From IMG/VR virus record IMGVR_UViG_2740892444_000003, positions 1-45,219 of that record: 45,219 bases of DNA, one strand, 5' to 3'. The position numbers and the translations under genes were made by a program. This document shows, one piece after another, positions 18,021 to 39,831 of this stretch. The notes under the pieces were generated by a model, which was not told the origin of the DNA, searched no databases, and saw nothing but the letters and a program-made list of their open reading frames with translations. The stretch is from a virus (taxonomy: Duplodnaviria; Heunggongvirae; Uroviricota; Caudoviricetes). How positions within the stretch are numbered: position 1 is the first letter of the stretch; each line of letters begins with the position of its first letter.

Positions 18021-18381
18021 ACGGCATCAACTCACAATGCGCCTGAACGAATCCGGCCCCATAAGCTGTATACGGGTCGACGAAGGTCACACGATAATCA
18101 CGGCCCTGATACGTCACGATATCGGCATCACGGCCAGTCTGCCCCTGTGTCAGCCGCTCATTTGTCACGATAAGAATCGCGCCACTGATAACTTGCCCGG
18201 ACTGCATACGGCGGTTCTCCAGGGAGCGGTCAACGGTAACAACTCCGGCAAACTGCGTTTTAACTTCGCTGTCGCTGCCGATCCCGTCATCGTCCACCGT
18301 TTGCACGCGACGCGTTACCCACAGGTTGAAGTCGCAAAAATCGGGGTCAAAAAGCACGTCTGTTACATCAAGAGTCGGCAT
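17992..18381 (-). CDS. Head-tail joining protein
   Basis: A 129-aa ORF in the connector block. Confidence 0.45.
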   Translation of the reverse strand: MPTLDVTDVLFDPDFCDFNLWVTRRVQTVDDDGIGSDSEVKTQFAGVVTVDRSLENRRMQSGQVISGAILIVTNERLTQGQTGRDADIVTYQGRDYRVTFVDPYTAYGAGFVQAHCELMPFDGGTPVEQ

Positions 18382-18922: not shown

Positions 18923-19326
18923 AGCTGGCGACCGCCCGCACCGAACATCGTGATCAGCTGATAAAATTCAGCGCCATATCGGGTGTTATTCCAGAAACCT
19001 GCATCAGGATTCAGCGTCGCGCTGGTGTCATAACTGACGCTTACCTTATCCACGGACTTTGAGGACTGAACACCATTGGTTGAACCGCCAGGGCCGCCAA
19101 CCAGCATCGCCCGGCTGTCTGCCGCCCAGAGCGTCATGTAGTGTGCAACGAACAATCCGGCAAAGTACGGAAACAACTTTTTGCCGGTGACGTTTTCGCT
19201 CAGCAGTTCATCGGCCAGATTCAGACGAAACTGGATTTGCGCTTCGGGATATTTGGCAGGGTCAGCAAACTGCGGGAAGTCGCGGCGAAAATCACTTACC
19301 GCTGGCAGACTTTGATTCTTTGGCAT
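18919..19326 (-). CDS. Head-tail adaptor (DUF4054-like)
   Basis: A 135-aa ORF, the first gene after the capsid block. Confidence 0.5.
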
Positions 19327-19513
19327 TTTTTACCTCGTTACGCGCGTCTGTAGCTTTGCCAACGGATACTTCCGCGTGCGCACGAGTGAACCAGTGCGTG
19401 GCAACGTCTTCCTCCACTGCATGACGGCCTTTAACAAACTCGCGCCGAGAACCGTCGGGAAGCGTGAGCACAAACGGGGTATGTACGTGTATTACTGCAT
19501 TATTTTTTGCCAT
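19292..19513 (-). CDS. Small head-associated protein
   Basis: A 73-aa protein from [10 protein letters not shown], with an AAGGA RBS. It is the C-terminal part of the 150-aa track ORF, whose 5' part overlaps the capsid gene. Confidence 0.45.
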
Positions 19514-19553
19514 CGGGTCATCCTTAATGGCCCCGCCAGGGGCCATGTGGCTG

Positions 19554-20495
19554 TTAAATGCCATCAACGTACGAAATGGTTTCTTTGTACACTGGCTCGA
19601 CTGCACCCAGCTTGCCGTAGTAGGTCGCAATCTGATACAGACCACGATACTGGATAGGAACGCTCTGCAACGGCACCAGCGGATAGCGCACGTATTTCTT
19701 GTCGTTGGTGTACGCAACCATGCGATCCTTATCCCCCACACCACGGCCTTTCAGCCATTTAACCGCGCGGATATTCAGCGGAACACCGTTCTGGTGATAG
19801 CTGATGGTGTTGGTCTGAAGATACGTCAACAGGGACTGGTTACCCGCAGATGAAACGATGATGCTGGACAACAGAGCAAACTGCTCAGGCGGGATCAGCA
19901 AATCACGCGGAACCACAGAGTAACCGGAAGCGGCCCACGCATCAGACAGCACCTGGTTAATGCTTGCGCGGATTTCGTCCGGTGTTGAGGTTGCCCACGT
20001 TTTGGCAGCGTTGTTGACAGGAACACCGTTCAGGGTAACAAGGCCTTTCAGGTTTAATGCGGAATCGCCAACATACACCTGTTCATCGTTATCCATCTGC
20101 CATTTCAGTTGCATCCCGTCATACTTCTGCGTATCAATCGGGCGTCCGACCTGCTGAGCAGCCTGCAATTCTATGACCGTCCAGCCAAGTTCCATCCCCC
20201 ACAGGTTCAGCGGGTTACCGGATTTGCCGATATCCACGTTTACGCCAGCAATAGCGGTTGAGTCTTTGCCTACCCAGTTTTTGCCATTCGGATTTGCGCC
20301 AGTACCCGCAGCGGCGAAGCTGGTATTCGTCCAGCTGGAAATGTCATCTGCGATAGAGACATCTTCACGCAACTGAATATCGCGGGTCCATGTGTACCCC
20401 ACCAGTGGCAGGTTCAGAGTCTGGTCGAGTCGCTCCAGCTCTCCGATGAGAAAGGCACCAGAGCTGTCAACGGTTGCCTGATCAAAAGTAATCAT
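19554..20495 (-). CDS. Major capsid protein
   Basis: A 313-aa protein positioned after the scaffold and decoration genes, resembling DUF2184-type capsid proteins (from memory). Confidence 0.8.
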   Translation of the reverse strand: MITFDQATVDSSGAFLIGELERLDQTLNLPLVGYTWTRDIQLREDVSIADDISSWTNTSFAAAGTGANPNGKNWVGKDSTAIAGVNVDIGKSGNPLNLWGMELGWTVIELQAAQQVGRPIDTQKYDGMQLKWQMDNDEQVYVGDSALNLKGLVTLNGVPVNNAAKTWATSTPDEIRASINQVLSDAWAASGYSVVPRDLLIPPEQFALLSSIIVSSAGNQSLLTYLQTNTISYHQNGVPLNIRAVKWLKGRGVGDKDRMVAYTNDKKYVRYPLVPLQSVPIQYRGLYQIATYYGKLGAVEPVYKETISYVDGI

Positions 20496-20506
20496 TCGTC
20501 TGTTCC

Positions 20507-21010
20507 TTAAATCTTCCAGGAAATTTCTGCATTGCCGTTAGCATCACCGGCACCTGTGAATTCAGCGTTGGTCAGCACCACGTTTTTGCCACTGACTGAC
20601 GTGGCCATGAATCCACCCAGCGGCACTTTGATGGATCCATCAGTGGAGACGACAACGTATACCGGGTCGCCTTTTTTGATGGTGCTGGCATCAAAATCAG
20701 AACCGAGATTAACGGTCACGTAGCCACGCTTCATTGCGTCGCCCGGGAAGTTCTTGCCACTCCCCACCTGGCGAACCATGTCCGGCTGCGACGTGGTCGG
20801 ATAAGGGCGCACATAGATCCCCTTCACCTTGTCTGCGGTATCACCATCTGCCAGCGGTACGAAAAAACCGTCAGCATCGTATTTACCAGCCAGCCCATAG
20901 GCAGCAAAGGCGTTATCGGATTTAAGGACCACCGGTTCGACGGTTAAGTCCTGCGGGCGAGAGATAGCCCCGGCAATGCCAACAGGCATCCGGTACAGAT
21001 ATGCAGTCAT
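20507..21010 (-). CDS. Head decoration / cement-type protein
   Basis: A 167-aa ORF between the scaffold and capsid genes. Confidence 0.45.
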   Translation of the reverse strand: MTAYLYRMPVGIAGAISRPQDLTVEPVVLKSDNAFAAYGLAGKYDADGFFVPLADGDTADKVKGIYVRPYPTTSQPDMVRQVGSGKNFPGDAMKRGYVTVNLGSDFDASTIKKGDPVYVVVSTDGSIKVPLGGFMATSVSGKNVVLTNAEFTGAGDANGNAEISWKI

Positions 21011-21014
21011 TGTA

Positions 21015-22235
21015 TTATCCTTTGCGGTTAGACCAGAATTCGGCGTTTTGTTTGTTCAGGGAAGCGATGCTGGTCATGCCCATGTTTGGGCGCTGTGCAT
21101 CGCCGGTGGTGGCGCGGGTGTTTCGCCCTTTGGCAATCTCAGACACGGCATTAAACGCCATGTTGACCGATTGTTTCGGTAATTTGCGGATATCCGCATC
21201 ACCGACTATCTGGCGAACCAGCGTTTTATCTGCGGAAGCCAGAACCTCGCGTTTGAACGCGGTCGGTTTCATCTTACGGCTCAGATCGATACCCGGAACG
21301 ATAACTTCGGCACGCCAGGCTGAGTCACCAGTAATCGTGGTTTCCTCTTCATCGTCCTCGCCGTCACCGGTCGGATTATCGTCAGGCTTATTGTCGTTAT
21401 CGCCCGTCGCATTTCCTTCCAGCTTAGCCAGCAGGGCTTTCAGTAATGTTTTGAGGTCATCATCACTGTCGCCGGTTGGACCTCCACCCATCTCTGGTGC
21501 TTTGTCCGGTAGTGGTTGCTGCGGGGACAGGTTGATGTTGAGATTAACGCCCTGCGGCAAATCCCCCTCATCTCCTGTAACCGATGCGGGAGCCGACTCC
21601 ACCAGTTCGTTCATGGTGTCGGCATCTCCTGTCTTGATGGCTGCACGCATGCGGTTCCACCAGTTTTTCTTTTGATTTGCCATTGTGTCTCTGTCTCCAA
21701 TTGCACAACGATTTCCGGCTCTGCCTTTGGGGACAAGAGCCACATGGTTTCCGGTAATATCGACCTGCTCGGCTTTACCTGGCTCGGTCTGCTCGTACTC
21801 CGCGTCATAACCGCACGACACTTCACGCAGGCCATCTTCGATAAGCTGAATGGCGTTTTCGTCTTTGACGATAAGGTCAGCCAGCATCAAATCAGACTGC
21901 TCACCCGTCCCGCGCCGGACATTCTGGAGGTGCCCGACAGCAAGCTCTTTCCAGTTCTCGGGATTTACCAGCCGCACATTCCCGTTTTCATCTTCAGGAT
22001 GCAGGATCGTGATGCTCATCCCTTCGAATGATGCGAGCGTGGCCGGATGGAATACCTGCTCAGGAGAACGCGTTACGACTATCTCACCGAGCTTGTCGGG
22101 TTTGAGGTTTGGCAGATCGGCAGCGCCGTAGAGCTGCTTACCCGTTCGACCTATCGGCACGTCTTTGCACAGCAGCGAGCCGTCAGCCAGCTGATAGCGG
22201 GTTTCCCCCAGCCGGGTATTGAAAAAATATTTCAT
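21015..22235 (-). CDS. Prohead protease/scaffold protein (DUF2213-like) with an acidic low-complexity centre
   Basis: A 406-aa protein with a D/E/G-rich central linker, positioned between the Mu-F-like and capsid genes. Confidence 0.6.
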   Translation of the reverse strand: MKYFFNTRLGETRYQLADGSLLCKDVPIGRTGKQLYGAADLPNLKPDKLGEIVVTRSPEQVFHPATLASFEGMSITILHPEDENGNVRLVNPENWKELAVGHLQNVRRGTGEQSDLMLADLIVKDENAIQLIEDGLREVSCGYDAEYEQTEPGKAEQVDITGNHVALVPKGRAGNRCAIGDRDTMANQKKNWWNRMRAAIKTGDADTMNELVESAPASVTGDEGDLPQGVNLNINLSPQQPLPDKAPEMGGGPTGDSDDDLKTLLKALLAKLEGNATGDNDNKPDDNPTGDGEDDEEETTITGDSAWRAEVIVPGIDLSRKMKPTAFKREVLASADKTLVRQIVGDADIRKLPKQSVNMAFNAVSEIAKGRNTRATTGDAQRPNMGMTSIASLNKQNAEFWSNRKG

Positions 22236-22249
22236 GGTTTACCTGCGAT

Positions 22250-23023
22250 TCAGGCGAGATAAGAATGAGGGTTGGGGAAGACGATTTCTTTGTAACAGCG
22301 GCAGTTCGGGAGTTCGCCAGCGTGACCGGTCATGCCATCAAGCGTTGGAGGTTTGCCCCATTCGACAAACTTACCTTCCATCTCCCGATGAGAATGCCGG
22401 ACGTCGCCATCTTCGGCTGTACGCCAGATATAACCATTCGAGCCGATTGACAGCGCACGCGCCTGATCGAGCGCGCCGGTTGCGCGTCCAAGCTCGGTAC
22501 GGGCGATAAGGTTCGCTCGTGAGCGTGACACGTCACCGGACGCAGCTATCTCTTTCGCGAATGGCTCAGCGCGGCCACCAGACACAACGGCCTCGATGGC
22601 CTTGTTCTGAATGTCATACACCCGATCGGCGGCCTCAAGAGGCAGTGACTTGATGTACTTAATTTGCTCGGCGACGATGGATTTCATCACCTGGCCTACC
22701 GGGGCGCGGTCGACCATGTTGCGCAGCTCTGCGCTGATGTTCCGGCTGTGCTGACGCCACTGCTTTTCATTCTGGCGTGCAATGTCGGCGGTAAAGTTCT
22801 CAGCAACCTTCGTCGCCCAGGGGGTGATGATTTCGCTGTAGCGCTCCAGCGCATCCATTATTTCGGTGACACTGTCATTTGAACCATCGTAGCGACCATT
22901 TACGATATCCCCGACCGCCCGCGCTATCTGCCGTAGGCTCGTTCGATATCGGATCTCCGCCTGGCGACTCTGGCGGTTTGTCGCCAAGTTCGCCGATGCC
23001 TGGCGGCGCTTCGTCTTCGGCAT
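22250..23023 (-). CDS. Head morphogenesis protein (Mu F / SPP1 gp7 family)
   Basis: It has the C-terminal ...ELPNCRCY motif typical of the family. The start is uncertain: ATG 23023 overlaps the portal gene by 149 nt, and the alternative is ATG 22858. Confidence 0.7.
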   Translation of the reverse strand: MPKTKRRQASANLATNRQSRQAEIRYRTSLRQIARAVGDIVNGRYDGSNDSVTEIMDALERYSEIITPWATKVAENFTADIARQNEKQWRQHSRNISAELRNMVDRAPVGQVMKSIVAEQIKYIKSLPLEAADRVYDIQNKAIEAVVSGGRAEPFAKEIAASGDVSRSRANLIARTELGRATGALDQARALSIGSNGYIWRTAEDGDVRHSHREMEGKFVEWGKPPTLDGMTGHAGELPNCRCYKEIVFPNPHSYLA

Positions 23024-24341
23024 TCTCTATGTCCTCGTCGGTAATTGACGCCCCGATGCCGGTTACGTCAGAATTTTCGCGCAAATCGGTCATAGCGGCT
23101 TTCAGTGTCATCAGACCATCACCCAGCGCCGTACTGATTGCGTTGGTAGTGTTTAACGCCACCGTTGAGCGATCGACATCAGACATTTGCCAGAGCGGGT
23201 TAAACTCAAACGTGAAATCGTCCGGCAGCGGCTTACCGAGTTCCGAGCGGTGCATAATGTCCAGTATCCGGCGCATCGGCATCCGTAAGCGGCGCTCCTG
23301 CAATGAGCTCACCCGGTCGTAATAGTTGGCAAGATCTGCATCACCGGTAGAAAATCCTTTCGGGGACTGTCCGAACAACCGCACCAGTGGGATACCAACA
23401 GCGCCACTAATCTGTTCTGCAAACTGTGAAAGGATGTCATCCAGACCACTGAAGCTGTACTGATGGGTTTCGAACTTATCCCGCGAGTCCATGAGCGTCA
23501 TGCCTTCATTGCTCTGGAACTGTCGAATCAGGTCGATATTCTTCAGCAACGCTTCATACGCAGGACCACCAAGTGCGATAAGCTCACGTAGCTTCTCCAC
23601 GCTGTAGGTACGCAGATGCGCCTTGTAGACCAGCTGCGCCGCACCGACAGTAGCGCTGTCGAACGCGGTAAGACGATCCCAGATACGCTCTACAACCGAC
23701 ATTCCCCATTCGTTCTCGGTCATCTTCTGCTGGAATGGCAGCGTCACCCCGTCGAAGCGAATCAGGCGACTGTGATGGATGCGCCAGGCCGGAATGCCCG
23801 TTGCGGTGGTCACCACGTCGTAAAACTCAGGCTTGCCGAGGTCCGGCCCCATCTCTTTAATGCGGCGTGTCAGCACCGGGTTAATCATCCAGCGGTCGAG
23901 CGGGAGAATGCCCTTAAACTTGCCCTCGCCAATGGTTTCGAGTCGCAGCGGGGTCATTGGTGCCTGCCCCTCGATCATGATGAAGCCAACCGCACCGCCA
24001 TAGAGACGAGACCATTTCAGCACGTCATTCAGCGCATCCCAGATTTGCAACTCATCCAGTTGTGATTCGAGAATGCCGCGATCTTTTGCATCAATTTCCG
24101 AAGTGATGCGAATGCCTTTGCGGGTCATATCATCCGGGATAGCATCGACCGCTTCGCCGATAACCCAGGATGAACGATAGGACCATTCCACCAGCATGCG
24201 GTTACGACTGGTGAAATTAGCCCGGTAGGTGGATGCTGAGTGCTGGTTAGGTGTCTGCATTCCCACGCGGGCGACAAAGTTCTCATAGCCATCAGCGGTG
24301 GCCTGTGCCGTTCGCCGCGTGGCTTGTTTGTTTCGTGCCAT
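22875..24341 (-). CDS. Portal protein
   Basis: A 488-aa protein immediately downstream of terL with an ATGA-type overlap. Confidence 0.8.
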   Translation of the reverse strand: MARNKQATRRTAQATADGYENFVARVGMQTPNQHSASTYRANFTSRNRMLVEWSYRSSWVIGEAVDAIPDDMTRKGIRITSEIDAKDRGILESQLDELQIWDALNDVLKWSRLYGGAVGFIMIEGQAPMTPLRLETIGEGKFKGILPLDRWMINPVLTRRIKEMGPDLGKPEFYDVVTTATGIPAWRIHHSRLIRFDGVTLPFQQKMTENEWGMSVVERIWDRLTAFDSATVGAAQLVYKAHLRTYSVEKLRELIALGGPAYEALLKNIDLIRQFQSNEGMTLMDSRDKFETHQYSFSGLDDILSQFAEQISGAVGIPLVRLFGQSPKGFSTGDADLANYYDRVSSLQERRLRMPMRRILDIMHRSELGKPLPDDFTFEFNPLWQMSDVDRSTVALNTTNAISTALGDGLMTLKAAMTDLRENSDVTGIGASITDEDIENAEDEAPPGIGELGDKPPESPGGDPISNEPTADSAGGRGYRKWSLRWFK

Positions 24342-25963
24342 CAGGCCTGTCTCCCTAGCAGCTCCCAGATATTCAGGGCTGAATTCATTGGCGCATAGTT
24401 GATCATCACCGAGTCGGCAAGGTTTGGCGACCGGGTTCCATCAGGCTGTTTATCAATAACGATTTTTCCCACACCATTAATGGAATAGGTCGGCTGCGAA
24501 AGCTCGATGATGAGTTTATCTTTGAGTGCCATGCTACTGCTGATTGAGATGATTTCGTCCGGGTTGTAAGCCATACCTTCAACCACGGCACGCCAGGTGT
24601 TCTGAAAAAGTTTACGTAACCGCCACCAGCTCTGGGCTTTGGCGTTAGCGAAGAAGTCCTTGTTCAGGCGTGCGGCCTGTCCGTTGTCCCCGCGCACCGC
24701 TTCATCGTCCGGATCAAATACCGCGCCGCTACCACGAAACGGTGTGGCGAGTATTGACGGTCGGCGCGCTGCGTAACGCAGTTCGTTGATGGCGCGCGCA
24801 TCGCCGCGAACGCCAGCACCCAGGCCGTCCTCGTCGAAGCGAAACTCTTCGAGGTTGTCCTGTTCGCAAAAGCCGAAGACCTTCTCAACAGACTGGTAAA
24901 TGTCGCTGCCAACGCCGGACCATTCACGCACGTTCTCCAGAAGGAAGCCGTGACGGGTCGAAAAGGCATTTTTGTCCCGGCCTTCGTCGGCGACGTCCAT
25001 CGCGCCCAGTCGCTTGCCCGTTGGCTGAATACCAAGTTTGATATGCGCGTCGACGGCAGCCTGTACCCAGTCGGACGGGATCAGGACGCCTTCCGCAGAT
25101 GCGCTGTAGTTCAGGTCAAGTTCCTGCGCCACCACCACCGGATTGTCGATTTTCTCGCACTCCCTGCGATACCACTCTTCATCCTTGCGCGGGTCATCTC
25201 GCCAGTGGAACGTGAATACTGGTATTTTTCCGCCGTGGCGCTTCTGAGCGAACGGGTTCGCCATGCCGTTAACTGAACTCAGGTCAATACGGCAACGCGT
25301 CGTTTGTGACAACGCCGCATCAATCAGCAGAGGACGCTGAAGGAATGCAGCCTCATCCACCAGATAAAGCGTGGTACGGTCACCACGTCCGATATTGTCG
25401 CCAGCCTCGCCTTTGATAACCGCGCCAGTATCTGGAAACTCAACGCGCATATACGGCGCATGCTTCTTCTCGTCCCACGAACCACGAAACTCGATGGGCA
25501 GTGTTTCCACGAACTTTCGCGCCTTCCAGAACAGCGCCTTCGGGTCACCGGTGCTGTCGACGTATTCCTCTTTACGGGAGCCGAAACCGATAACCATTTC
25601 TTTGTTGAAGAGACAAAGCGAGCAGGCCAGCCCGATCGCGGTCCAACTGAGCCCCATTTCACGGGATTTTTCGGTAATACCATTCTCCCGATTACCCCAG
25701 CGTTCCATAATCCAGTGGATCCACTCCTCCTGCTTAGGGAAGAGTAAAAACGGAATGGTCACCGGCAGGCCATAATCAATATTACGCGGGTCCGTTGTCA
25801 TGCCCCAGTCGATGATGAACTGAGCCGGATTGGTTCGGTAAAACTGTTTTAGTGCAGGCAATATTTCAGGATTCTGGCGAATGCGCTGTAGGCGTTCCAT
25901 CCGCCATTCAAAAACCATCTGGTAATCAGGATGTTTAAAATCGAAGGGGAATGGTAACGGCAT
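24341..25963 (-). CDS. Terminase large subunit
   Basis: A 540-aa protein with a Walker-type ATPase region (FGSRKEEYV.. / LYLVDEAAF) and a C-terminal nuclease-like region. Confidence 0.9.
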
Positions 25964-25965
25964 AC

Positions 25966-26517
25966 TTAGCCCATCATTTTTTTATACGCTTCTGCAGCCT
26001 GCTCCGGCGTTAAGTTGGTAATTTCTGTTCTGACTGGTCCTCCGTCAGCACCAGTCACTTCATTTTTGACGTTGTCTTTAAACGCCTGAACAGAAACATG
26101 ACGCCCGAGCAACTCAAGGTTTTTAACCTTATCAGGCCATTTGATTTTCTTCAGGAGAGCAGCACTATCTGCTGATGCCATCTCGACGACATCCATTCCT
26201 GATAGCGTTGTACGCCACACCTTAGGCCAGTCTTTAATGGGCTTCAGTTCGCCATTGGCAAGCAGAATGTCAAGCACGTCCATCTGATCGATTTCAATAA
26301 GGCGATTAAGTACATATTCTGCATTAATACTAACAAGATCATTGCGTTGCGCTTTCAGTTCGGCGATTCTTAACTTGATGTCAGGTTTTGACAGGTTTTC
26401 GGATGCGGTACGGTTAGCTGTCTTTGCGCTGTACCCCGCCCGAATAGCCGCTTGCGTGGCGTTTAAATCGATGAGGTACTCGCGACAGAACATTTCTTGC
26501 TTGTCGGTGAGTGCCAT
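25966..26517 (-). CDS. Terminase small subunit (Terminase_2 / P27 type)
   Basis: [30 protein letters not shown]... is the characteristic N-terminal HTH of this family. Confidence 0.8.
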
Positions 26518-26541
26518 AGTTTTCTCTAGAGGATTTCTTTA

Positions 26542-26778
26542 ATGAACTCAAAGCAAATTTTTTACCGAAATACAGGTCATGATAATGAAACTTATATATT
26601 CCTGGACAAATTGGACAATGGCTCCTACCAAGTCAGGGCTGGTCATTCGTCACCTGTGAGCCATTTTGAATGGAAGGGTGATGAAACCATTCAGACAGTG
26701 GAAGAGTTTCTAGGTTCTAACCCATCATATACTGAACGTGTTCATCAACTAATTTCTGAGTTTGAAGCAGAATCGTAA
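26542..26778 (+). CDS. Hypothetical 78-aa protein on the opposite strand to all neighbouring genes
   Basis: It has a GAGGA RBS, is AT-rich, and is divergent from terS with only 24 bp between the start codons. Confidence 0.4.
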   Translation: MNSKQIFYRNTGHDNETYIFLDKLDNGSYQVRAGHSSPVSHFEWKGDETIQTVEEFLGSNPSYTERVHQLISEFEAES

Positions 26779-27199
26779 TCACCACCCAAGCGACTCAACT
26801 GATATCTAGTTCATCATTACTAGGACTAAAAGTAGATTCCTGACATTGAGAACCTCTTTATCCGCTTGTGGGGATATCAGTTAAGTTATCCCGTGTAGGG
26901 TATAAGCCATTGTCGAGACCACTCATTGAATGGCCTCTGCAATAACCGATGTCTTTCCATCAGTCCGCCACCACAAAGAATCTTTTTTGCCATAAGGCAG
27001 GAGGTTCATCTTTCAGTGGCTGCCAGTGTTATTTCCCCACTTACTGGCTTGGGTTGTTTCGCTGTACTGCCGTTAACTGGTGGCGCACAGATTTAGTTAA
27101 ATCCGTTCTCGCATGATCCAGCTTTTACATACCTGGATTGTGAGGGATGTAAATCACGGTTTCATTATCAAGCCCACCAGTAGATGGGCTTTGTAATGG

Positions 27200-27457
27200 C
27201 TACTTCGCTTTTGCTTCCGCTCGCTTACGCCGGCGCTCTTCTTTCCTCTCGGCTTTTGCCATGTCCATGAATGCCTGCATGATCGAGTTACGCATCATGT
27301 AGCTAACAAAGTGATGATTGACACAGCCGTTGAGGCGCAGCTGCTCGCCAAACTCATCCACCGAGGCCAATGCTTCCATCATGCCCTTCTCGCCTTTCAT
27401 GAACTCTGAGAAGTCGCGCCCCGCTCTGGAGGCGCATTCAATAACACGATCACTCAT
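27200..27457 (-). CDS. Hypothetical 85-aa protein with a basic C-terminal tail
   Basis: It overlaps the KilA-N gene stop (ATGA), and its C-terminus is KEERRRKRAEAKAK. Confidence 0.5.
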   Translation of the reverse strand: MSDRVIECASRAGRDFSEFMKGEKGMMEALASVDEFGEQLRLNGCVNHHFVSYMMRNSIMQAFMDMAKAERKEERRRKRAEAKAK

Positions 27458-27951
27458 CCCGGAAGCCCGGGGATCGTAATCTGCAGCTGGTTAGCCAGGG
27501 AGTTAATCTCAGCGACCAACACTGGCTTCGTATAGCGCCATGCTGCCAGCCCTTGTCCGCAGAAGCTCGCCATGTCTTTCTTCTGGTCAAACTCATGACA
27601 TTTCATGTTGAGCTGCGCACTTAAGCTGTTGCGATGCTGAAGTTCTCCGGTGAAGTAGTCATCGAGGACTTTATAGGCCGCGTACTTGAACCCGGGGTTT
27701 AACCAAGCCGCATAATCGTAAGCAACAAACTTCCCGCCATATGTTCCACCGTGTACACCGCGCTCAGTAAAAACCACAGATTCGTGGTTTTTCTCCAGCT
27801 CGGCTAAGAACTCTTTGGTCTGCTTGTTTCGCAGGTAGTGGTACGGAGATTCAGATTCACTTTTACCACTGGCTTTCCACATATCAGTGAGGCAGATCAT
27901 TCCTGATTCATCAACACGGATCGGTGTATTAAAAAGCGTGATTGCTTTCAT
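27454..27951 (-). CDS. KilA-N domain DNA-binding protein
   Basis: From MKAITLFNTPIRVDESGMICLTDMWKASGK..., a pattern typical of the KilA-N domain. Confidence 0.65.
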   Translation of the reverse strand: MKAITLFNTPIRVDESGMICLTDMWKASGKSESESPYHYLRNKQTKEFLAELEKNHESVVFTERGVHGGTYGGKFVAYDYAAWLNPGFKYAAYKVLDDYFTGELQHRNSLSAQLNMKCHEFDQKKDMASFCGQGLAAWRYTKPVLVAEINSLANQLQITIPGLPG

Positions 27952-28094
27952 AGCGTCTTTACCTTTTAGAAAGTGAGCCTGTCTCACAGAAAAGCCGCCC
28001 GAGAGAGGTCGCCACCTATAACGGCATTTCTCAGGCTCGCTTACTGAAAGGCTCTCGTTAATATGCGCGTGAGATGCGCGTTTACTGCGGACAT

Positions 28095-28120
28095 AAAAAA
28101 GCCCCGCTTTTCGCGAGGCT
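28095..28120 (-). terminator. Rho-independent terminator after Rz
   Basis: On the minus strand, GCCTCGCGAAAAGCGGGGC is followed by T6. Confidence 0.6.
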
Positions 28121-28151
28121 CATTAAATTGACTTTGTGATTTGCAAAAAAA

Positions 28152-28589
28152 TTATTTCAGGCACTGAGTCCTGATGTACTCCTGCAGGTAGTTAACCTGC
28201 GCGGTTATCCTGTCGATTCCACTTCGGAGACGGTAATAATTGAGTTCAGCATCTGCTGTAAGTCTTGGGCTTTCTCCATCGCCCATGCTGCTGGCTCCGG
28301 CCGTTGACTTTGCACAGGTGGCGGCGACTTGCAGGCGCTTACGACCAGCAGAAACATCAGCACGGAGACTTTCGATAGTAGCGTTAGCATCAGCAAGCTC
28401 CTTTGTGTATCTGGCGTCAAGTTCTGCTACATCACGTTGACGCTTCTGCATATCAGCGATGATGGACGTGGCTTTATCGCGCTGTTCTTTATAGGCGATG
28501 GCGTTATCACGGTAATGATTAACAGCCCATGACAGGCAGACGATGATGCAAATAACCAGAGCGGAGATAATCGCGGTTACTCTGCTCAT
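28152..28589 (-). CDS. Rz: Spanin inner-membrane subunit Rz
   Basis: The N-terminus [31 protein letters not shown] matches lambda Rz as I recall it; the central part differs. Confidence 0.85.
28205..28390 (-). CDS. Rz1: Spanin outer-membrane lipoprotein Rz1 (embedded in Rz, +1 frame)
   Basis: It has the lipobox LLVVSAC followed by a Pro-rich mature part, and is fully nested in Rz as in lambda. Confidence 0.7.
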
Positions 28590-29062
28590 ACCTCAATCTC
28601 TCTGACCGTTCCGCCAGCCTCTTTGAATTTTGCAATCAGGCTGTCAGCCTTATGCTCGAACTGACCATAACCAGCGCCCGGAAGTGAAGCCCAGATATTG
28701 CTGCAACGGTCAATTGCCTGACGAATATCACCGCGATCAATCATTGGTAAAGCGCCACGCTCTTTAATCTGTTGCAGTGCCACAGCGTCCTGGCTTTTGG
28801 GGGAGAAGTCTTTCAGGCCAAGCTGCTTACGGTAGGCATCCCACCAACGTGAAAGAAGCTGATAGCGACCGGCGGCTGTTGATTTGAGTTTGGGGTTTAG
28901 CGTGACAAGTTTGCGAGGGTGATCTGAGTAATCAGTGAATAGCTCTCCGCCTACAATGACGTCATAACCATGATTTCTGGTTTTCTGACGTCCGTTATCA
29001 GTTCCCTCTGACCATGCCAGCATATCGAGGAACGCCTTACGTTGATTATTGATTCCCACCAT
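28586..29062 (-). CDS. R: Endolysin, lambda R-type lytic transglycosylase
   Basis: A 158-aa protein, [42 protein letters not shown]..., near-identical to lambda R as I recall it. Confidence 0.9.
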
Positions 29063-36207: not shown

Positions 36208-36504
36208 TCAGAATTGCATATCAATTTGCTTAAAATCCTCGGTGGCGGCCGGGGATTTTTTCTTTGTGATTTCATCAAGCGCATACTTAAAAGCCCTGCT
36301 AATCGGACTGATGTCTGATGCCATTCCGAAAGCACACAAGACCGAAGCAATAAATCTCCAGTCCGTTCTGCTTATCTTCGATTCATGACAGCCAATCATC
36401 TTTGCCAGACCGCGCTGGGTAATAGCTGACAGATTGATAAGTAAATCTGTTTCTGCGCGATCAACGTCACGCTGTGATAGTTTGCTGTAACTTGTTCTTT
36501 CCAT
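36208..36504 (-). CDS. cII: CII-type transcriptional activator
   Basis: It has an HTH plus a C-terminus [18 protein letters not shown], comparable to lambda CII KKRPAATERSEQIQMEF. Confidence 0.8.
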
Positions 36505-36589
36505 TTCTTAAGATTTCCAATAGTGAATAGTTAGTTGAAAGGTATGCGTGGAAACGCATATGGCCTTAGTTGGTCAGATATCTTGGGGC

Positions 36590-36635
36590 TCGCTTTTCAG
36601 CGACGTAGGACGAATGTCCATTGTTACAAAGAGCG
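36590..36635 (-). promoter_or_regulatory. nutR-like site (boxA CGCTCTTTG, boxB TCGC-TGAAAA-GCGA)
   Basis: Read on the minus strand between cro and cII. The boxB loop is the same as in the nutL candidate. Confidence 0.45.
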
Positions 36636-36642
36636 GGGTTAC

Positions 36643-36876
36643 TTATGCTGCTGATGCTCTACGCGATACGAACACCAGATTTTCCTTTTTCACAGGTTTA
36701 TAACCCGTGAAATTACGAGTGGCTTCTTCGATTGCATTCGCTTTATCTGGGGAAGCTCTTCGAAACCCATATGCAATCTGATCAAGATAGCCAACTGAAG
36801 TATTCGCTAATGCGGCGAGTCGCTTCCATTCCTCACTAGAAGCCTCTTTTCGCCAGCGTAGTAGTTCATTACTCAT
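36643..36876 (-). CDS. cro: Cro-type repressor
   Basis: A 77-aa protein with a GGAGG RBS, divergent from cI. Confidence 0.7.
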   Translation of the reverse strand: MSNELLRWRKEASSEEWKRLAALANTSVGYLDQIAYGFRRASPDKANAIEEATRNFTGYKPVKKENLVFVSRRASAA

Positions 36877-36903
36877 TAGTGCCTCCGTTTATCACACAGA
36901 GCA

Positions 36904-36932
36904 ACTTTACCATTTTGATAAATAAACTGCAA
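36904..36932 (-). promoter_or_regulatory. PR promoter with overlapping operator
   Basis: On the minus strand: TTGCAG, a 17-nt spacer, then TAAAGT. The 17-bp operator TTTATCAAAATGGTAAA (36906-36922) overlaps the spacer and the -10 element. A further operator-like site, TTTATCCATTTGCTAAA, lies at 36955-36971. Confidence 0.5.
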
Positions 36933-36989
36933 TGGAGATTTATCAAAATGCGTATTTATCCATTTGCTAAATAGAGGGAGAATCGTGGG

Positions 36990-37694
36990 ATGGAAAACAA
37001 AGATATTCGCAAATCGAATCTGGCGTTTTTGCTAGATGAGCATAAAAAAATCGCTGGTAACACTAATGCAAGCTTTGCCGATAAGCTTGGAGTTAGCCCT
37101 TCTCAACTCACGCAAGTCTCCGGTGAAAAAAGCACTCGAAACATAGGGGATAAACTAGCAAGAAAATTCGAAGCCGCACTTGGGTTACCTAATGGGTGGC
37201 TTGATTTGGTACATGATGTAACACCAATTGCATCATGCTCAGATTCTTTAACTTTTGTCGGTCAGGTAAGAAAAGGGTTAGTGCGCGTGGTTGGTGAGGC
37301 AATTCTTGGTGTTGATGGTGCCATCGAGATGACCGAAGAGCGCGATGGGTGGCTCAAGATTTATAGCGATGATCCAGATGCCTTTGGTCTTCGTGTGAAA
37401 GGAGACAGCATGTGGCCTAGAATAAAATCAGGAGAATATGTACTCATTGAGCCTAACACCAAAGTATTCCCGGGTGATGAGGTGTTTGTCAGAACCGTTG
37501 AAGGACACAACATGATCAAAGTTCTTGGCTATGACAGAGACGGAGAATACCAGTTTACAAGCATCAACCAGGACCATAGGCCAATAACGTTGCCTTATCA
37601 TCAAGTAGCAAAGGTGGAGTATGTGGCTGGTATTCTGAAGCAATCTCGCCATCTGGATGACATCGAGGCAAGGGAGTGGCTGAAAAGTTCGTGA
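36990..37694 (+). CDS. cI: CI-type repressor with a LexA-like S24 autopeptidase domain
   Basis: It has an N-terminal HTH (FADKLGVSPSQLTQV) and a C-terminal GDSMWPRIKSGEYVLIEP...KVLG motif set. Confidence 0.9.
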   Translation: MENKDIRKSNLAFLLDEHKKIAGNTNASFADKLGVSPSQLTQVSGEKSTRNIGDKLARKFEAALGLPNGWLDLVHDVTPIASCSDSLTFVGQVRKGLVRVVGEAILGVDGAIEMTEERDGWLKIYSDDPDAFGLRVKGDSMWPRIKSGEYVLIEPNTKVFPGDEVFVRTVEGHNMIKVLGYDRDGEYQFTSINQDHRPITLPYHQVAKVEYVAGILKQSRHLDDIEAREWLKSS

Positions 37695-37860
37695 CTTCAT
37701 CGTCACATAGCTGATAGCCAGTGGCCTGAAGAGACGTTTGGGTAATTCCAATTGTTATTTATGAACAGTCAATTCCGCCAGATTGGTGATGATGACAAGC
37801 CGCTATGGCTTAGCTTCAACATGAATACATTCATCGTAACCACAGCAGGGAGTTTAACGA

Positions 37861-38865
37861 ATGAATTCTATTGAAAATCATGATGTTTATGTGTATACAG
37901 GCGATATTCATCGTGATGGTTATCTTGATCTCACCAATGAAATCAAGAAACGTAAGTCACAACATGGATTAAAAGAAAATGTTATCTTCTGTGTTGCTAC
38001 TTATGGCGGTGATCCAAATGCAGGTTATCGTATAGGTAGAGCTCTACAGCACCATTATGAAACGGTAACACTTTTAGTTGTTGGACCATGCAAAAGTGCT
38101 GGTACACTAATAGCTATAGCAGCCAATAAACTTGTTATTGGCGACATGGGGGAGCTTGGACCATTAGATATCCAACTGAAAAAAAACGATGAAATAGGTG
38201 AAATGAGTTCTGGTTTAGCTATCATGACAGCTCTTGATGCTCTAAAGGAACGCTCTATTTCAGCGTTTAACTCACACCTTGTTAAGATAAGGTACGAAAA
38301 TCAGATCAGTACTAAAATGTCTGCTGATATCGCAACCAGACTTACAGAAGCGTTGATAGCACCTATGGCCGCACAGATAGATCCTATAAAGCTTGGTGAA
38401 CATCAGCGCGCAATGAGTATAGCTATCACTTATGGTCAACGATTAGCAGACAAACCAAGCAGCCTAAAAGAAGGGGCGTTAGGCAAACTAATAGCCTCAT
38501 ATCCTTCACATGGATTTGTTATCGACAGAAAAGAAGCCAAGGAACTTTTCAAGTGTGTTGAACATCCTGAAGGCATAACAGAAATACTCTATAATCTTTT
38601 CTGTGACAAAATTCATAGTGGTGAAATTCCAACATTTGGAAAGCCAAGAGTAATGGATTTCACTGTTTCCCAACAAGATAAAGAGGAATACACTAATGCC
38701 GAAGAATCTGCAACCGGAGATGGAAGTTCTCAACAGGATGCTGGAAAGCCAGATCCAGGAAGGTCGCGATCTGGCAAGAAAAGCGGAACAACACCTGAAC
38801 GAGATCAAGAAGGAATTGGAGCCGTATCAATTCAACCACCAGATGAACAGCAACCTAATGCGTGA
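37861..38865 (+). CDS. ClpP/crotonase-fold serine peptidase (SDH / S49-like), in the rex-slot position
   Basis: The segment ...FCVATYGGDPNAGYRIGRAL...LLVVGPCKSAGTLIAIAANKLVIGDMGELGPLD matches a Clp-fold pattern, with the putative nucleophile Ser at codon 38095-38097. The gene is AT-rich and has an AGGGAG RBS. The last ~56 codons look non-coding by codon choice. Confidence 0.65.
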   Translation: MNSIENHDVYVYTGDIHRDGYLDLTNEIKKRKSQHGLKENVIFCVATYGGDPNAGYRIGRALQHHYETVTLLVVGPCKSAGTLIAIAANKLVIGDMGELGPLDIQLKKNDEIGEMSSGLAIMTALDALKERSISAFNSHLVKIRYENQISTKMSADIATRLTEALIAPMAAQIDPIKLGEHQRAMSIAITYGQRLADKPSSLKEGALGKLIASYPSHGFVIDRKEAKELFKCVEHPEGITEILYNLFCDKIHSGEIPTFGKPRVMDFTVSQQDKEEYTNAEESATGDGSSQQDAGKPDPGRSRSGKKSGTTPERDQEGIGAVSIQPPDEQQPNA

Positions 38866-38881
38866 TCTCTTTGCTCTGTAA
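38696..38881 (+). CDS. Hypothetical 61-aa helical protein overlapping the 3' end of the protease ORF in another frame
   Basis: It has a GAGGA RBS and host-typical codons (CTG, CCG, GAA, CAG). It ends 15 nt before the terminator. Confidence 0.5.
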   Translation: MPKNLQPEMEVLNRMLESQIQEGRDLARKAEQHLNEIKKELEPYQFNHQMNSNLMRDLFAL

Positions 38882-38895
38882 TTAATTCCTCACAT

Positions 38896-38920
38896 CCCGG
38901 CCTCAGCGCCGGGTTTTCTT
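38896..38920 (+). terminator. Terminator closing the cI/rex-slot transcription unit
   Basis: CCCGGC-CTCAGC-GCCGGG followed by TTTTCTTT. Confidence 0.7.
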
Positions 38921-39111
38921 TGCCTCACGTTCGCCCCAAAACACATAACCAATTGTATTTATTTGAAAATTAACAGATACAACTCACTAAAACGCGCAAT
39001 TCTGATCCCCCTCAAGTCTCTTTATTCCTTCTGATAAATTCCTGCAATCAAATAAAAAACCATAATAATCAACAGGATATTTGAAAACAAAAACAATTTA
39101 TCATTTTGCTA

Positions 39112-39140
39112 TTGCCATTAATTTATCATTTCGATAAAGT
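39112..39140 (+). promoter_or_regulatory. PL promoter with overlapping operator
   Basis: TTGCCA, a 17-nt spacer, then TAAAGT. The perfect operator TTTATC-ATTTC-GATAAA lies at 39122-39138, and a weaker half-matching site lies at 39097-39113. Confidence 0.55.
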
Positions 39141-39186
39141 TAACTCATCAGCAGGACGCTGGAAGCCAAACGGAACAGACTGGCAG

Positions 39187-39232
39187 GCTCTTTAAACAAC
39201 GTCGAACACTCGACTACGTGGCTGAAAAGCCA
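39187..39232 (+). promoter_or_regulatory. nutL-like site (boxA GCTCTTTAA, boxB TGGC-TGAAAA-GCCA)
   Basis: It lies between PL and N and parallels the nutR candidate. Confidence 0.4.
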
Positions 39233-39330
39233 GATCACCCAACCACATAAGCTGTGGGATGCAATGCCGAAGCAACCGTCTCAGGAGGGGCTTCGAGATT
39301 GCATCGCCAAAGTTTATTCGGGAGGAATCT

Positions 39331-39603
39331 ATGTCCAGAAAAACAGAATTTAAAGGCACCTCAGCTTCTCGCCGTAGAGCTCGTCGCGCAAACCTGCAAA
39401 GTCAGGAGGCGATCAGCTCCGACAAGCTACACAGGCCAACCCCTTCACGAGTGGTCTTGCAATGCAAGCGCAAACCAGCAATGAGAGCAGAAGTGATAAC
39501 TCTGACAACGTTGACCAGAAAATATGAAGGTTCAACTTGTCTTCCGAACGTAGCCATTTACGCGGCAGGCTACAGGAAATCAAAACAACTGACAGCAAGG
39601 TGA
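39331..39603 (+). CDS. N-type antiterminator (P22 gp24-like)
   Basis: It has a GGAGG RBS, an Arg-rich motif SASRRRARRANL, and a C-terminus LPNVAIYAAGYRKSKQLTAR comparable to P22 gp24 LPGVALYAAGHRKSKQITAR (from memory). Confidence 0.75.
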   Translation: MSRKTEFKGTSASRRRARRANLQSQEAISSDKLHRPTPSRVVLQCKRKPAMRAEVITLTTLTRKYEGSTCLPNVAIYAAGYRKSKQLTAR

Positions 39604-39666
39604 CTTGTGTTGGTCGCCAGAAACAACGCGGAAAATCAATTCCAGCTTATTACGATTGAGGTAGTC

Positions 39667-39831
39667 ATGCTCAAGAAAGTCAAACGCCGACTTTACAAAG
39701 AAGGTAGATATTCATGTCAATTGCCAAAATGCGACACAACAAAATGGAGTGTCGATGATTGGTGTAACTGGATAGATAGATACGGAACTTGGTGGGAGCG
39801 TATTTATTTTCGCAGCAAACCACTTATTTGA
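39667..39831 (+). CDS. Hypothetical early protein (54 aa, Cys/Trp-rich)
   Basis: An internal ATG preceded by a GAGG RBS. The upstream part of the track ORF abuts the N stop. Confidence 0.4.
   Translation: MLKKVKRRLYKEGRYSCQLPKCDTTKWSVDDWCNWIDRYGTWWERIYFRSKPLI

What the first reader, a model, noticed from the sequence alone, without database searches (positions are those of the whole stretch)
37695..38920. ClpP/SDH-fold serine protease cassette in the cI-downstream (rex) slot
**Seen in the sequence**
- Directly downstream of the CI repressor gene and upstream of PL/N lies a 334-codon, visibly AT-rich ORF. This is the slot where lambda carries rexAB and 933W carries stk.
- Its N-terminal ~130 aa show a Clp/crotonase-fold peptidase pattern (GGDPNAGYRIGRAL ... 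VVGPCKSAGTLIAIAANKLVIGDMGELGPLD). The putative nucleophile is Ser79, at codon 38095-38097.
- The unit ends at a good terminator (38896-38920), so it is probably co-transcribed with cI in the lysogen.
- A 14-bp palindrome, ATGAATACATTCAT, sits 27 bp upstream of the start.

**Established knowledge**
- Genes in this slot of lambdoid prophages are typically lysogen-expressed exclusion or defence functions.

**Inference**
- This is a protease-based superinfection-exclusion or defence function. I do not know of a characterised one of this type in this position.
- It is not the prohead protease, because the head module has its own scaffold/protease candidate at 21015-22235.
Basis: partly seen in the sequence, partly recalled or inferred. 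Interest (0 to 1): 0.75.

Follow-up and report, generated by a model that had tools for sequence, protein, structure and literature searches.

The report
Prophage protease cassette in rex slot
A temperate E. coli phage carries, exactly where phage lambda carries its rexAB exclusion genes, an uncharacterised ClpP-like serine protease gene that also hides a second small gene in another reading frame; it is a good untested candidate for a new prophage-encoded defence function.

Summary

It does not meet the thresholds for ClpP, S49, the SDH NCBIfam model or head-maturation proteases. It belongs to a large uncharacterised SDH-like family of about 1,400 clusters at 50% identity.

The "rex slot" reading is directly supported: an E. 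coli prophage with lambda cI and lambda OL/PL carries this gene where rexAB sits. In viral contigs, 19 of 42 dereplicated family clusters lie immediately downstream of an S24 repressor. Homologues are also cargo in a P2-like phage and a filamentous phage.

Three corrections and one addition:
- The "14-bp palindrome" is an imperfect 6+2+6 repeat of no significance.
- The terminator belongs to the phage backbone, not the cassette.
- The cassette's left edge abuts a relic of the lambda cI 3' end.
- The protease's "disordered tail" overlaps a conserved 61-codon ORF in another frame (38696-38881). That ORF has its own Shine-Dalgarno site and is under purifying selection; the protease frame there is not.

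A defence function is plausible from position alone. It is untested, and no known defence model matches.

The parts
36990..37694 (+). cI repressor gene of H-19B/BP-4795 immunity type. It is context for the cassette and the presumed source of its transcription (PRM/PRE).
   Evidence: Peptidase_S24 E 3.8e-16. 94% nucleotide identity to the cI genes of H-19B and BP-4795.
37716..37746 (+). Left junction of the cargo slot. This 30-nt stretch is identical to the 3' end of a lambda-type cI gene (encoding SQWPEETFG, then stop), but here it lies downstream of the unrelated H-19B-type cI stop codon.
   Evidence: Alignment A6 and the translation of the L003 cI. The sequence is shared by loci with different repressors and different cargo.
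37761..37874 (+). 37-codon upstream ORF overlapping the protease start by 14 nt. It is probably a truncated remnant of a 56-71-aa ORF that precedes the protease in the Klebsiella-type cassettes. Its status as a gene is uncertain.
   Evidence: It is found only in near-identical E. coli cassettes. Similarity to the C-terminal half of the L002 71-aa ORF is weak and was judged by eye.
37821..37834 (.). No evidence of function.
37861..38865 (+). Gene for a ClpP/crotonase-fold, SDH-like serine peptidase of 334 aa. The folded core is about residues 1-270. The last 56 or so codons overlap orf61 and are not under purifying selection in this frame.
38095..38097 (+). Codon for Ser79, the predicted nucleophile in the motif CKSAGT.
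   Evidence: It aligns with the active-site AASAGT of the 1510-N protease. It is Ser in 91 of 92 homologues.
38683..38687 (+). GAGGA Shine-Dalgarno-like motif 8 nt upstream of the orf61 ATG. A purine-rich GAGGA-like motif (exact GAGGA in most) recurs at this position in most cassettes sharing 58-100% protease identity.
38696..38881 (+). orf61, a conserved 61-codon ORF in the +1 frame relative to the protease. It overlaps the protease's last 170 nt and ends 16 nt after the protease stop codon. It is predicted to be a single long alpha-helix. It is not annotated in RefSeq records of this cassette.
   Evidence: dN/dS is 0.10-0.25 in this frame against 0.7-3.25 in the protease frame over roughly the same tail region, for 10 of 12 comparisons with the window; the closest allele (L003) reverses, and two distant pairs have saturated dS. 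Substitutions by protease codon position are 124:49:542 in the core and 74:38:35 in the tail, chi-square 151. Searches show its conservation. AF2 model with pLDDT 86.
38896..38920 (+). Intrinsic terminator closing the cI-cargo transcription unit. It is part of the conserved phage backbone.
   Evidence: It is conserved behind different cargo in BP-4795, L003 and L004.
39095..39140 (+). OL operator repeats (AATTTATCATTTYGMTA, two copies) and a PL-like promoter (TTGCCA-17-TAAAGT). These mark the right-hand limit of the slot.
   Evidence: The sequence is shared with BP-4795.
39331..39603 (+). N antiterminator gene (context).
   Evidence: PF25694 E 1.7e-31, matching residues 23-114 of the longer ORF 39259-39603. 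GGAGG precedes the ATG at 39331.

Best explanation
Window 37747-38890 is a mobile accessory ("moron") cassette sitting in the cI-to-OL/PL slot of a lambdoid prophage, the slot that holds rexAB in lambda.

It is read through from the repressor promoters and ends at the backbone terminator, so it should be made in the lysogen together with cI (inferred).

It encodes two products:
- A soluble ClpP-fold serine peptidase. Ser79 is the likely nucleophile, G49-G50 the likely oxyanion-hole glycines, and D103 plus H181 or H217 the most likely catalytic partners (Ser-Asp-His order, as in SDH-type peptidases).
- A 61-residue all-helical protein, translated from its own start in an overlapping frame.

The most likely role is protection of the lysogen against other phages (exclusion or abortive infection) through proteolysis of a phage or host protein. 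The helical partner would act as inhibitor, substrate or adaptor of the peptidase.

Shown here: the fold, the conserved residues, the position, cassette mobility, and selection on both reading frames. Inferred: transcription, catalytic activity, any interaction between the two products, and the anti-phage role.
For: **Fold and active site**
- The profile alignment places CKS79AGT on the active-site AASAGT of 1510-N.
- G49, G50, K78, D103, H181 and H217 are invariant, and S79 is conserved in 91 of 92 homologues sharing 42-93% identity with the query.
- Core dN/dS is 0.07-0.08.

**Slot**
- The same gene at 96% identity follows lambda cI and precedes lambda OL/PL in E. coli 13C1065T.
- The same lambda-immunity backbone carries rexAB in SfI, two hypothetical genes in HK544 and HK542, and a NYN-domain gene in ev099.
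- The H-19B-type backbone carries a HigB-like module in BP-4795.
- BstA, a proven abortive-infection protein, occupies the same position, and the cI-N region is a recognised hotspot (PMC8585504).

**Recurrence**
- 34 of 65 upstream neighbours in IMG/VR contigs are Peptidase_S24 proteins.
- After dereplication, 19 of 42 clusters have such a neighbour. These repressors fall into 13 clusters at 40% identity.
- Homologues are also cargo next to the integrase of a P2-like Burkholderia phage and after zot in an inovirus-like replicon. The function therefore does not depend on one virion type or one repressor.

**Second gene**
-.

**Transcription**
- No terminator lies between cI and the cassette.
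Against: - There is no experimental or transcript evidence.
- No PADLOC model matches, and I found no paper on the family.
- The defence reading rests on position only. The same slot also holds toxin-antitoxin-like and unknown genes.
- In species-representative genomes only 5 of 72 homologues follow an S24 repressor. Their neighbours are integrases, XRE/M78 pairs and methylases mixed with housekeeping genes, not clear defence islands.
- ClpP-fold peptidases without an unfoldase usually cut only peptides or unfolded tails.
- An interaction between orf61 and the peptidase is pure inference.
Confidence: 0.45

Rival explanations
1. It is an addiction or toxin-antitoxin-like module. The peptidase (or the helical peptide) is harmful unless balanced by the other product, and the pair stabilises the prophage. 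Any phage resistance would be secondary.
For: - It has a two-gene architecture with a small partner encoded in an overlapping frame.
- The same slot holds a HigB-type toxin module in BP-4795.
- In Klebsiella sp. WP3-W18-ESBL-02 the protease ORF is truncated to 189 aa while orf61 stays intact.
Against: - There is no similarity to any known toxin or antitoxin family.
- The partner has no DNA-binding domain typical of type II antitoxins.
- The small ORFs are not demonstrably homologous across clades.
Confidence: 0.15
2. It is a lysogenic-conversion factor unrelated to phages. A cytoplasmic peptidase would change host physiology, for example by degrading peptides or regulators or by improving stress tolerance or colonisation.
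For: - The family is large and spans many phyla: 1,385 clusters at E<=1e-30.
- Many members are chromosomal with no phage genes nearby, for example Neisseria dumasiana between a fimbrial operon and catabolic genes.
- Morons often encode fitness factors.
Against: - There is a strong preference for the repressor-proximal slot in phage contigs.
- It is sporadic within species, present in 28 of 5,426 complete E. coli genomes. That pattern is more typical of conflict genes than of physiology genes.
Confidence: 0.2
3. It is a regulator of the prophage's own lysis-lysogeny decision. For example, it might clear cleaved repressor fragments or leaky lytic regulators.
For: It lies next to stress-cleavable repressor modules: S24 repressors or XRE plus M78/ImmA pairs within 900 bp in 16 loci.
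Against: - Nearly identical protease alleles (96-100%) sit behind unrelated repressors. Lambda cI and H-19B cI share 18% identity.
- Homologues occur in P2-like and filamentous phages and in chromosomal sites without a repressor.
- Most phages with the same immunity regions lack the gene.
Confidence: 0.12
4. It is a catalytically dead ClpP-fold protein acting as a scaffold or decoy, or a decaying gene of no current function.
For: - It falls below the curated thresholds of every peptidase model.
- No His is present at the ClpP His position.
Against: - The core is under strong purifying selection, with dN/dS about 0.07.
- Ser, the GG motif, Asp and two His residues are invariant or nearly so across 92 diverse homologues.
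Confidence: 0.06

Closest known systems
SDH-type ClpP-fold serine proteinases (Pfam PF01972; NCBIfam NF047768)
   Same: - Best sequence-family match: E 4.6e-7, and most homologues carry a precomputed PF01972 hit.
- Best structural matches among viral proteins are giant-virus "serine dehydrogenase proteinases" aligned over 230-280 columns.
- The invariant residues occur in Ser...Asp...His order.
- RefSeq names the protein this way.
   Different: - The score is below the Pfam gathering threshold (29.6 against 31.3 bits) and far below the NCBIfam cutoff (36.7 against 250).
- Only 65 residues around the nucleophile align.
- The C-terminal half carries its own conserved motifs: IDPxKxGEHQRA and YPSHGFVIDRKEA.
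- It is cytoplasmic and phage-borne, and it has an overlapping partner ORF.
NfeD/1510-N (STOPP) protease with its stomatin substrate
   Same: - As a loose analogy only: a ClpP-fold peptidase encoded next to a coiled-coil protein with a hydrophobic C-terminus.
   Different: - It has no membrane anchor, no OB-fold domain and no stomatin/SPFH gene.
- The Lys of the Ser-Lys dyad is not conserved at the expected distance.
- The Pfam NfeD1b_N score is 18.9 bits against a cutoff of 40.
Lambda rexAB, BTP1 BstA and 933W stk: lysogen-expressed exclusion genes in the cI-N slot
   Same: - Same position and orientation relative to cI, the terminator and OL/PL.
- It physically replaces rexAB behind lambda cI.
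- Like BstA, it has a conserved association with diverse prophage repressors (PMC8585504).
   Different: - There is no sequence or fold relationship.
- The predicted biochemical activity (peptidase) differs from the RexB ion channel, the DNA-associated BstA and a protein kinase.
- No phenotype is known.
Lit protease of the defective prophage e14
   Same: It shares the concept only: a prophage-encoded protease that could abort infection.
   Different: Lit is a zinc metalloprotease that cleaves EF-Tu when triggered by the T4 Gol peptide (from my own knowledge). It is unrelated in fold and locus.
ClpP-related and S49 phage head-maturation proteases (NF045542; lambda gpC)
   Same: Weak profile hits over the ClpP-fold domain: NF045542 E 2e-8 and phrog_1684 E 3.9e-7.
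   Different: - The score is 34.4 bits against a cutoff of 120.
- It lies outside the head module, which has its own protease.
- Homologues occur in a filamentous phage that has no prohead.

Membership tests
ClpP/crotonase fold superfamily | Beta-beta-alpha superhelical fold, with the nucleophile at a strand-helix elbow and a GG oxyanion motif. | tested here: met
   [not shown]
ClpP (MEROPS S14, PF00574) | Profile score above threshold, and a Ser-His-Asp triad with the His about 25 residues after the Ser. | tested here: not met
   PF00574 scores 19.1 bits against a cutoff of 20.2 and matches only residues 38-90. Positions 101-105 are P-L-D-I-Q with no His. The positional comparison with E. coli ClpP was made by hand from memory of its sequence.
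SppA/S49 peptidases | A Peptidase_S49 profile match, a Ser-Lys dyad with the Lys 40-50 residues after the Ser, and membrane anchoring. | tested here: not met
   No Peptidase_S49 hit at E<=1. K128 is not conserved and the only conserved Lys after the Ser is K108. No hydrophobic segment lies outside the catalytic elbow. The name "SppA protein" given in some records is not supported.
SDH family (PF01972; NF047768) | Profile score above the curated threshold. | tested here: not met
   PF01972 scores 29.6 bits against 31.3. NF047768 scores 36.7 bits against 250. About 100 of the 120 listed homologues do carry a precomputed PF01972 hit, so this is a divergent sister group rather than a stranger.
SDH family (PF01972; NF047768) | Catalytic triad in the order Ser, Asp, His. 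| tested here: inconclusive
   S79, D103 (or D174) and H181 or H217 are invariant or nearly so and occur in that order. Their proximity in space could not be checked, because no model coordinates were available.
ClpP-related head-maturation protease (NF045542) | Profile score above the cutoff, and location in the head-morphogenesis module. | tested here: not met
   It scores 34.4 bits against 120. It lies in the immunity region. The head module has its own protease at 21015-22235 with no similarity, BLASTP E 0.37.
Cargo of the lambdoid cI-N (rex) slot | Lies between the cI stop codon and the terminator that precedes OL/PL, on the cI strand, and is interchangeable with other cargo on the same backbone. 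| tested here: met
Cargo of the lambdoid cI-N (rex) slot | Expressed in the lysogen from PRM. | not testable with these tools
   The only available support is the absence of an intervening terminator-like site.
Known anti-phage defence systems (PADLOC-DB 2.0) | A match to a model of a known or candidate defence protein. | tested here: not met
   0 families at E<=1.
Overlapping (overprinted) protein-coding gene | The alternative frame is open, has a conserved start codon and ribosome-binding site, and is under stronger purifying selection than the annotated frame over the same region. | tested here: met
   Met for the clade with >=58% protease identity. Similar dN/dS asymmetry appears in some other clades, but homology across clades was not shown. 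Open-frame length alone is largely explained by composition.

The most novel reading that the evidence does not exclude
The cassette is a previously unrecognised two-component anti-phage system found in several types of temperate phage (lambdoid, P2-like and filamentous). A self-standing ClpP-fold Ser-Asp-His peptidase would be held in check, or directed, by a small helical protein overprinted on its own 3' end. Infection would release proteolysis of a phage or host target. This would be the first ClpP-fold effector in phage defence, and a case in which the partner gene has been invisible to annotation across a family of more than a thousand clusters.
Probability: 0.25. Interest if true: 0.85.

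Novelty: new variant of a known kind. Interest (0 to 1): 0.6.

Why it matters
- The cI-N slot of lambdoid phages has repeatedly yielded exclusion and abortive-infection systems (rexAB, BstA, stk).
- This family is large and completely uncharacterised, and it shows the same repressor-linked habit over deep divergence. That makes it a concrete, cheaply testable candidate for a new class of prophage defence with a protease effector.
- Independently of function, the cassette contains a conserved overlapping gene that RefSeq and phage annotations miss. Any deletion or cloning experiment on "the protease" would unknowingly also remove or truncate a second protein.
- The "disordered C-terminal tail" of this family is at least partly a by-product of that overlap.

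Tried and rejected
- **Prohead protease.** Rejected. The head module has its own protease, with no similarity, and homologues occur in an inovirus-like replicon.
- **SppA/S49 membership, as some records name it.** Rejected. There is no S49 hit, no conserved dyad Lys and no membrane segment.
- **The palindrome as an operator.** Rejected. It is imperfect, at chance level and not conserved.
- **A family-wide upstream partner ORF.** Rejected. The upstream small ORFs are clade-specific or absent.
- **Defence-island enrichment around chromosomal homologues.** Not seen. PADLOC hits among 150 neighbours were HTH proteins, CapH/CapP-like XRE/M78 pairs and methylases only.
- **Open-frame length as proof of the overlapping gene.** Mostly explained by codon composition: observed median 63 codons against 48.5 in shuffles, with only 13 of 141 loci at p<=0.05. 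I therefore relied on frame-specific substitution patterns instead.
- **My test of whether the protease frame is kept open across the overlap.** It is circular as designed and is not used.
- **Cross-clade homology of the small ORFs by hhalign.** None beyond overlapping clusters.
- **Rfam scan of 36500-39700.** No hits.
- **Literature searches.** I searched for the family, for PF01972 and for ClpP-like defence, and looked in the DefensePredictor paper and its supplements. Nothing was found. The supplement files were truncated when stored, so absence there is weak evidence.
- **AFDB fold search.** Unavailable.
Full report
**1. What is at the coordinates**

The window holds a lambdoid immunity region in the order cro/cII (minus strand), cI (36990-37694, +), a 166-nt spacer, a 334-codon ORF (37861-38865, +), an intrinsic terminator (38896-38913 plus T tract), two operator repeats with a PL-like promoter (39095-39140), and an N antiterminator gene (ATG at 39331).

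- The cI product has a Peptidase_S24 domain (E 3.8e-16). The N product matches PF25694 (E 1.7e-31).
- The ORF has 40.3% GC against 48.9% for the window, the 3.5th percentile of 1-kb windows.
- The "14-bp palindrome" is really ATGAAT-AC-ATTCAT. Its centre is not self-complementary. Perfect 14-mers already occur about 2.6 times per shuffled window, and the Klebsiella version of the cassette lacks it. I give it no weight.

**2. What the protein is**

Profile searches give only sub-threshold matches, all centred on residues 38-110:

| Model | Score (bits) | Cutoff (bits) |
|---|---|---|
| PF01972 SDH_protease | 29.6 | 31.3 |
| PF00574 CLP_protease | 19.1 | 20.2 |
| NfeD1b_N | 18.9 | 40 |
| NF047768 Clp_like_SDH | 36.7 | 250 |
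| NF045542 head-maturation protease | 34.4 | 120 |

PHROGs has a full-length family for it, phrog_21683, of unknown function. PADLOC has nothing.

An AlphaFold2 model built on 92 homologues is confident for residues 1-270 (mean pLDDT 83, pTM 0.74) and disordered after that.
- Against viral models, the best and longest matches are giant-virus "serine dehydrogenase proteinases".
- A profile search of PDB sequences aligns CKS79AGT with the active-site AASAGT of 1510-N.

Across 92 homologues sharing 42-93% identity with the query:
- Invariant: G49, G50, K78, E98, D103, Q105, E111, S117, D174, H181, R183, H217, D222 and R223.
- In 91 of 92: S79, H64 and K108.

By hand alignment with E. coli ClpP (from my memory of its sequence), the ClpP histidine position, about 25 residues after the serine, is P101-L102-D103 here. 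No lysine is conserved at the SppA or NfeD dyad distance. The conserved residues instead follow the order Ser...Asp...His that defines SDH-type enzymes.

The protein has no signal peptide or membrane segment. Its core evolves under strong purifying selection, with dN/dS 0.07-0.08.

The family is large. A profile search of 1.84 billion representatives found 1,385 clusters at E<=1e-30 and 3,105 at E<=1e-10. They come from many phyla. RefSeq names the protein "SDH family Clp fold serine proteinase". I found no paper on it.

**3. The slot**

The repressor and operators are of the H-19B/BP-4795 immunity type (94% identity). In those phages the space between cI and the terminator holds a HigB-like toxin gene, a regulator and a hypothetical gene instead.

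In E. coli 13C1065T a 96%-identical copy of the protease gene follows a 237-aa repressor that is lambda cI (ending ...VIASQWPEETFG). It precedes the lambda OL/PL sequence. That same lambda-immunity backbone carries:
- rexA-rexB in phage SfI
- two hypothetical genes in HK544, HK542 and CL707
- a NYN-domain gene in ev099

So the gene literally replaces rexAB, and the slot is hypervariable. The BstA paper says the same of this region, citing Degnan et al. 2007 (PMC8585504).

The cassette limits can be read from the alignments.
- On the left, all contexts share AGCCAGTGGCCTGAAGAGACGTTTGGGTAA (window 37716-37746). This is the 3' end of lambda-type cI. In the window it lies 22 nt downstream of the unrelated H-19B-type cI stop codon, so it is a recombination relic.
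- On the right, similarity resumes at the terminator stem (38896), which therefore belongs to the backbone.
- The cargo is about 37747-38890.

Of 5,426 complete E. coli genomes, 28 carry the cassette, while about 250 share the junction.

**4. How general the association is**

- *Viral contigs.* IMG/VR holds at least 86 viral contigs with a family member. Of 65 immediate upstream neighbours, 34 are Peptidase_S24 proteins. After dereplication at 90% identity, 19 of the 42 clusters that have an upstream ORF in the locus have a cI-like ORF of at least 180 aa directly upstream on the same strand. The median gap is 92 nt. These repressors fall into 13 clusters at 40% identity, and the proteases involved span 40-100% identity to the query. 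Bartonella prophages show the same arrangement.
- *XRE plus M78 pairs.* A second recurrent neighbour is an XRE plus M78/ImmA pair within 900 bp, seen in 16 loci including Klebsiella phage ST13-OXA48phi12.4.
- *Other phage types.* Homologues are cargo next to the integrase of a P2-like Burkholderia phage, and between zot and the integrase of an inovirus-like Methylovorus replicon.
- *Isolated phages and plasmids.* Only 2 of 50,697 isolated phage records and one true plasmid carry a homologue.
- *Species-representative genomes.* Only 5 of 72 homologues follow an S24 repressor. Nearby genes include integrases, resolvases, methylases, GmrSD and XRE/M78 pairs mixed with housekeeping genes. Some members sit in plain chromosomal contexts.

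The picture is a horizontally mobile single-locus cargo. It favours the lysogeny-control region of temperate elements and does not depend on any particular repressor or virion type.

**5. A hidden second gene**

The last 60 or so codons of the protease behave oddly. Their dN/dS is 0.5-1.6, and their synonymous divergence is unusually low.

A 61-codon ORF in the +1 frame (38696-38881) overlaps them and ends 16 nt after the protease stop, 15 nt before the terminator stem. Its sequence is MPKNLQPEMEVLNRMLESQIQEGRDLARKAEQHLNEIKKELEPYQFNHQMNSNLMRDLFAL.

The evidence that it is a real gene:
- The ORF, its ATG and (in most members) a GAGGA-like motif 8-9 nt upstream (GAGGA at 38683-38687 in the window) recur in cassettes with 58-100% protease identity, from Enterobacterales to Aeromonadaceae.
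- Over roughly the same tail region, dN/dS is 0.10-0.25 in the new frame and 0.7-3.25 in the protease frame for 10 of 12 comparisons with the window. The closest allele (L003) reverses the pattern (0.54 against 0.23), and dS is saturated in the new frame for two distant pairs.
- In five non-overlapping sequence pairs, substitutions by protease codon position are 124:49:542 in the core but 74:38:35 in the tail (chi-square 151, P about 2e-33). Variation falls on the wobble position of the new frame.
- Alternative-frame peptides remain recognisably similar where the protease tails do not. There are 89 against 0 significant pairs at 50-60% core identity.

Other clades show the same asymmetry in dN/dS: 0.20 against 0.74 in a Rahnella/Proteus group, and 0.13 against 1.03 in a Marinobacter-containing group. 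Their small ORFs are not demonstrably homologous to this one. Open-frame length alone is largely a composition effect. I therefore claim the gene firmly only for the query's clade.

The product has no Pfam match. It is predicted to be one long helix (pLDDT 86) and ends in a hydrophobic motif. Databases hold only nine "hypothetical protein" clusters for it. At least one comes from a strain where the protease ORF is truncated, so gene callers could see the small ORF. RefSeq does not annotate it in the record identical to the window.

**6. Mechanism**

*Shown:* a ClpP-fold, SDH-like protein with conserved catalytic-type residues; a conserved overlapping small helical protein gene; a mobile cassette in the rex slot with no terminator between it and cI.

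*Inferred:* transcription from PRM/PRE in the lysogen; peptidase activity with Ser79 as nucleophile; a functional link between the two products.

My preferred reading (0.45) is a lysogen-expressed exclusion or abortive-infection function acting by proteolysis, with the helical protein as inhibitor, substrate or adaptor. I prefer it for these reasons:
- characterised occupants of this slot are mostly of that kind;
- the family keeps this position over deep divergence, as BstA does;
- it is sporadic within species;
- it rides on three unrelated kinds of temperate phage.

Rivals are a TA-like addiction module (0.15), a phage-unrelated conversion factor (0.2), a regulator of the prophage's own switch (0.12) and an inactive protein (0.06). 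The regulator rival is weakened because near-identical alleles sit behind unrelated repressors. The inactive-protein rival is weakened by the purifying selection on the core.

**7. Novelty and verdict**

The protein family already has a database name, and the slot's significance is known. The following appear to be new:
- the family's systematic link to prophage repressors;
- its direct substitution for rexAB;
- its presence in P2-like and filamentous phages;
- the overlapping gene.

None of the functional claims is tested. I rate it a new variant of a known kind (prophage moron or defence candidate) with moderate-to-high interest (0.6).

Noticed in passing
window 37716-37746: A 30-nt stretch identical to the 3' end of lambda-type cI (encoding SQWPEETFG, then stop) lies downstream of the unrelated H-19B-type cI stop codon. 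It is also present in BP-4795. It looks like a recombination relic that marks the left edge of the cargo slot in different immunity types.
   Followed up: partly
window 37761-37874: A 37-codon ORF overlaps the protease start by 14 nt. It weakly resembles the C-terminal half of a 56-71-aa ORF that precedes the protease in the Klebsiella-type cassettes (L002 5799-6014, L101-L105). It may be a truncated remnant of a third cassette gene.
   Followed up: partly
window 39258-39305: A 16-nt inverted repeat (88% complementary, 16-nt loop) lies in the leader just upstream of the N start codon. It might be a nutL/boxB-type or RNase III-type hairpin. It gave no Rfam hit.
   Followed up: no
L001 7440-7909 (equals window 39134-39603): RefSeq annotates the N region of the identical prophage as a frameshifted hypothetical protein plus a second hypothetical protein. 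The ORF nevertheless matches the N antitermination peptide family at E 1.7e-31.
   Followed up: no
L174 (NC_012972.1, Methylovorus pMsip02): This 9.8-kb "plasmid" carries zot, DUF2523, a small major capsid protein gene and an integrase, so it looks like the replicative form of a filamentous phage. The protease homologue sits directly after zot, which (from memory) is where CTXphi carries ctxAB.
   Followed up: partly
L175 3175-4186 (Klebsiella sp. WP3-W18-ESBL-02): The protease ORF is called at only 189 aa (truncated), while the downstream 61-aa ORF is intact and called as a separate gene.
   Followed up: no
L033, L040, L049, L053, L066, L071, L109, L143 and the L002 group: XRE-family HTH plus M78 (ImmA/IrrE, CapH/CapP-like) gene pairs lie within 500-900 bp of the protease gene, in varied orientations. 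This is a second kind of stress-cleavable repressor module associated with the family.
   Followed up: partly
window 14000-29000: The morphogenesis genes are of the SEN34 / vB_EcoM-606R2 type: myovirus-like, with a DUF2213-type head maturation protease at 21015-22235 (-). They are joined to a lambdoid regulatory region with P22-like recombination genes, so the prophage is a mosaic.
   Followed up: partly
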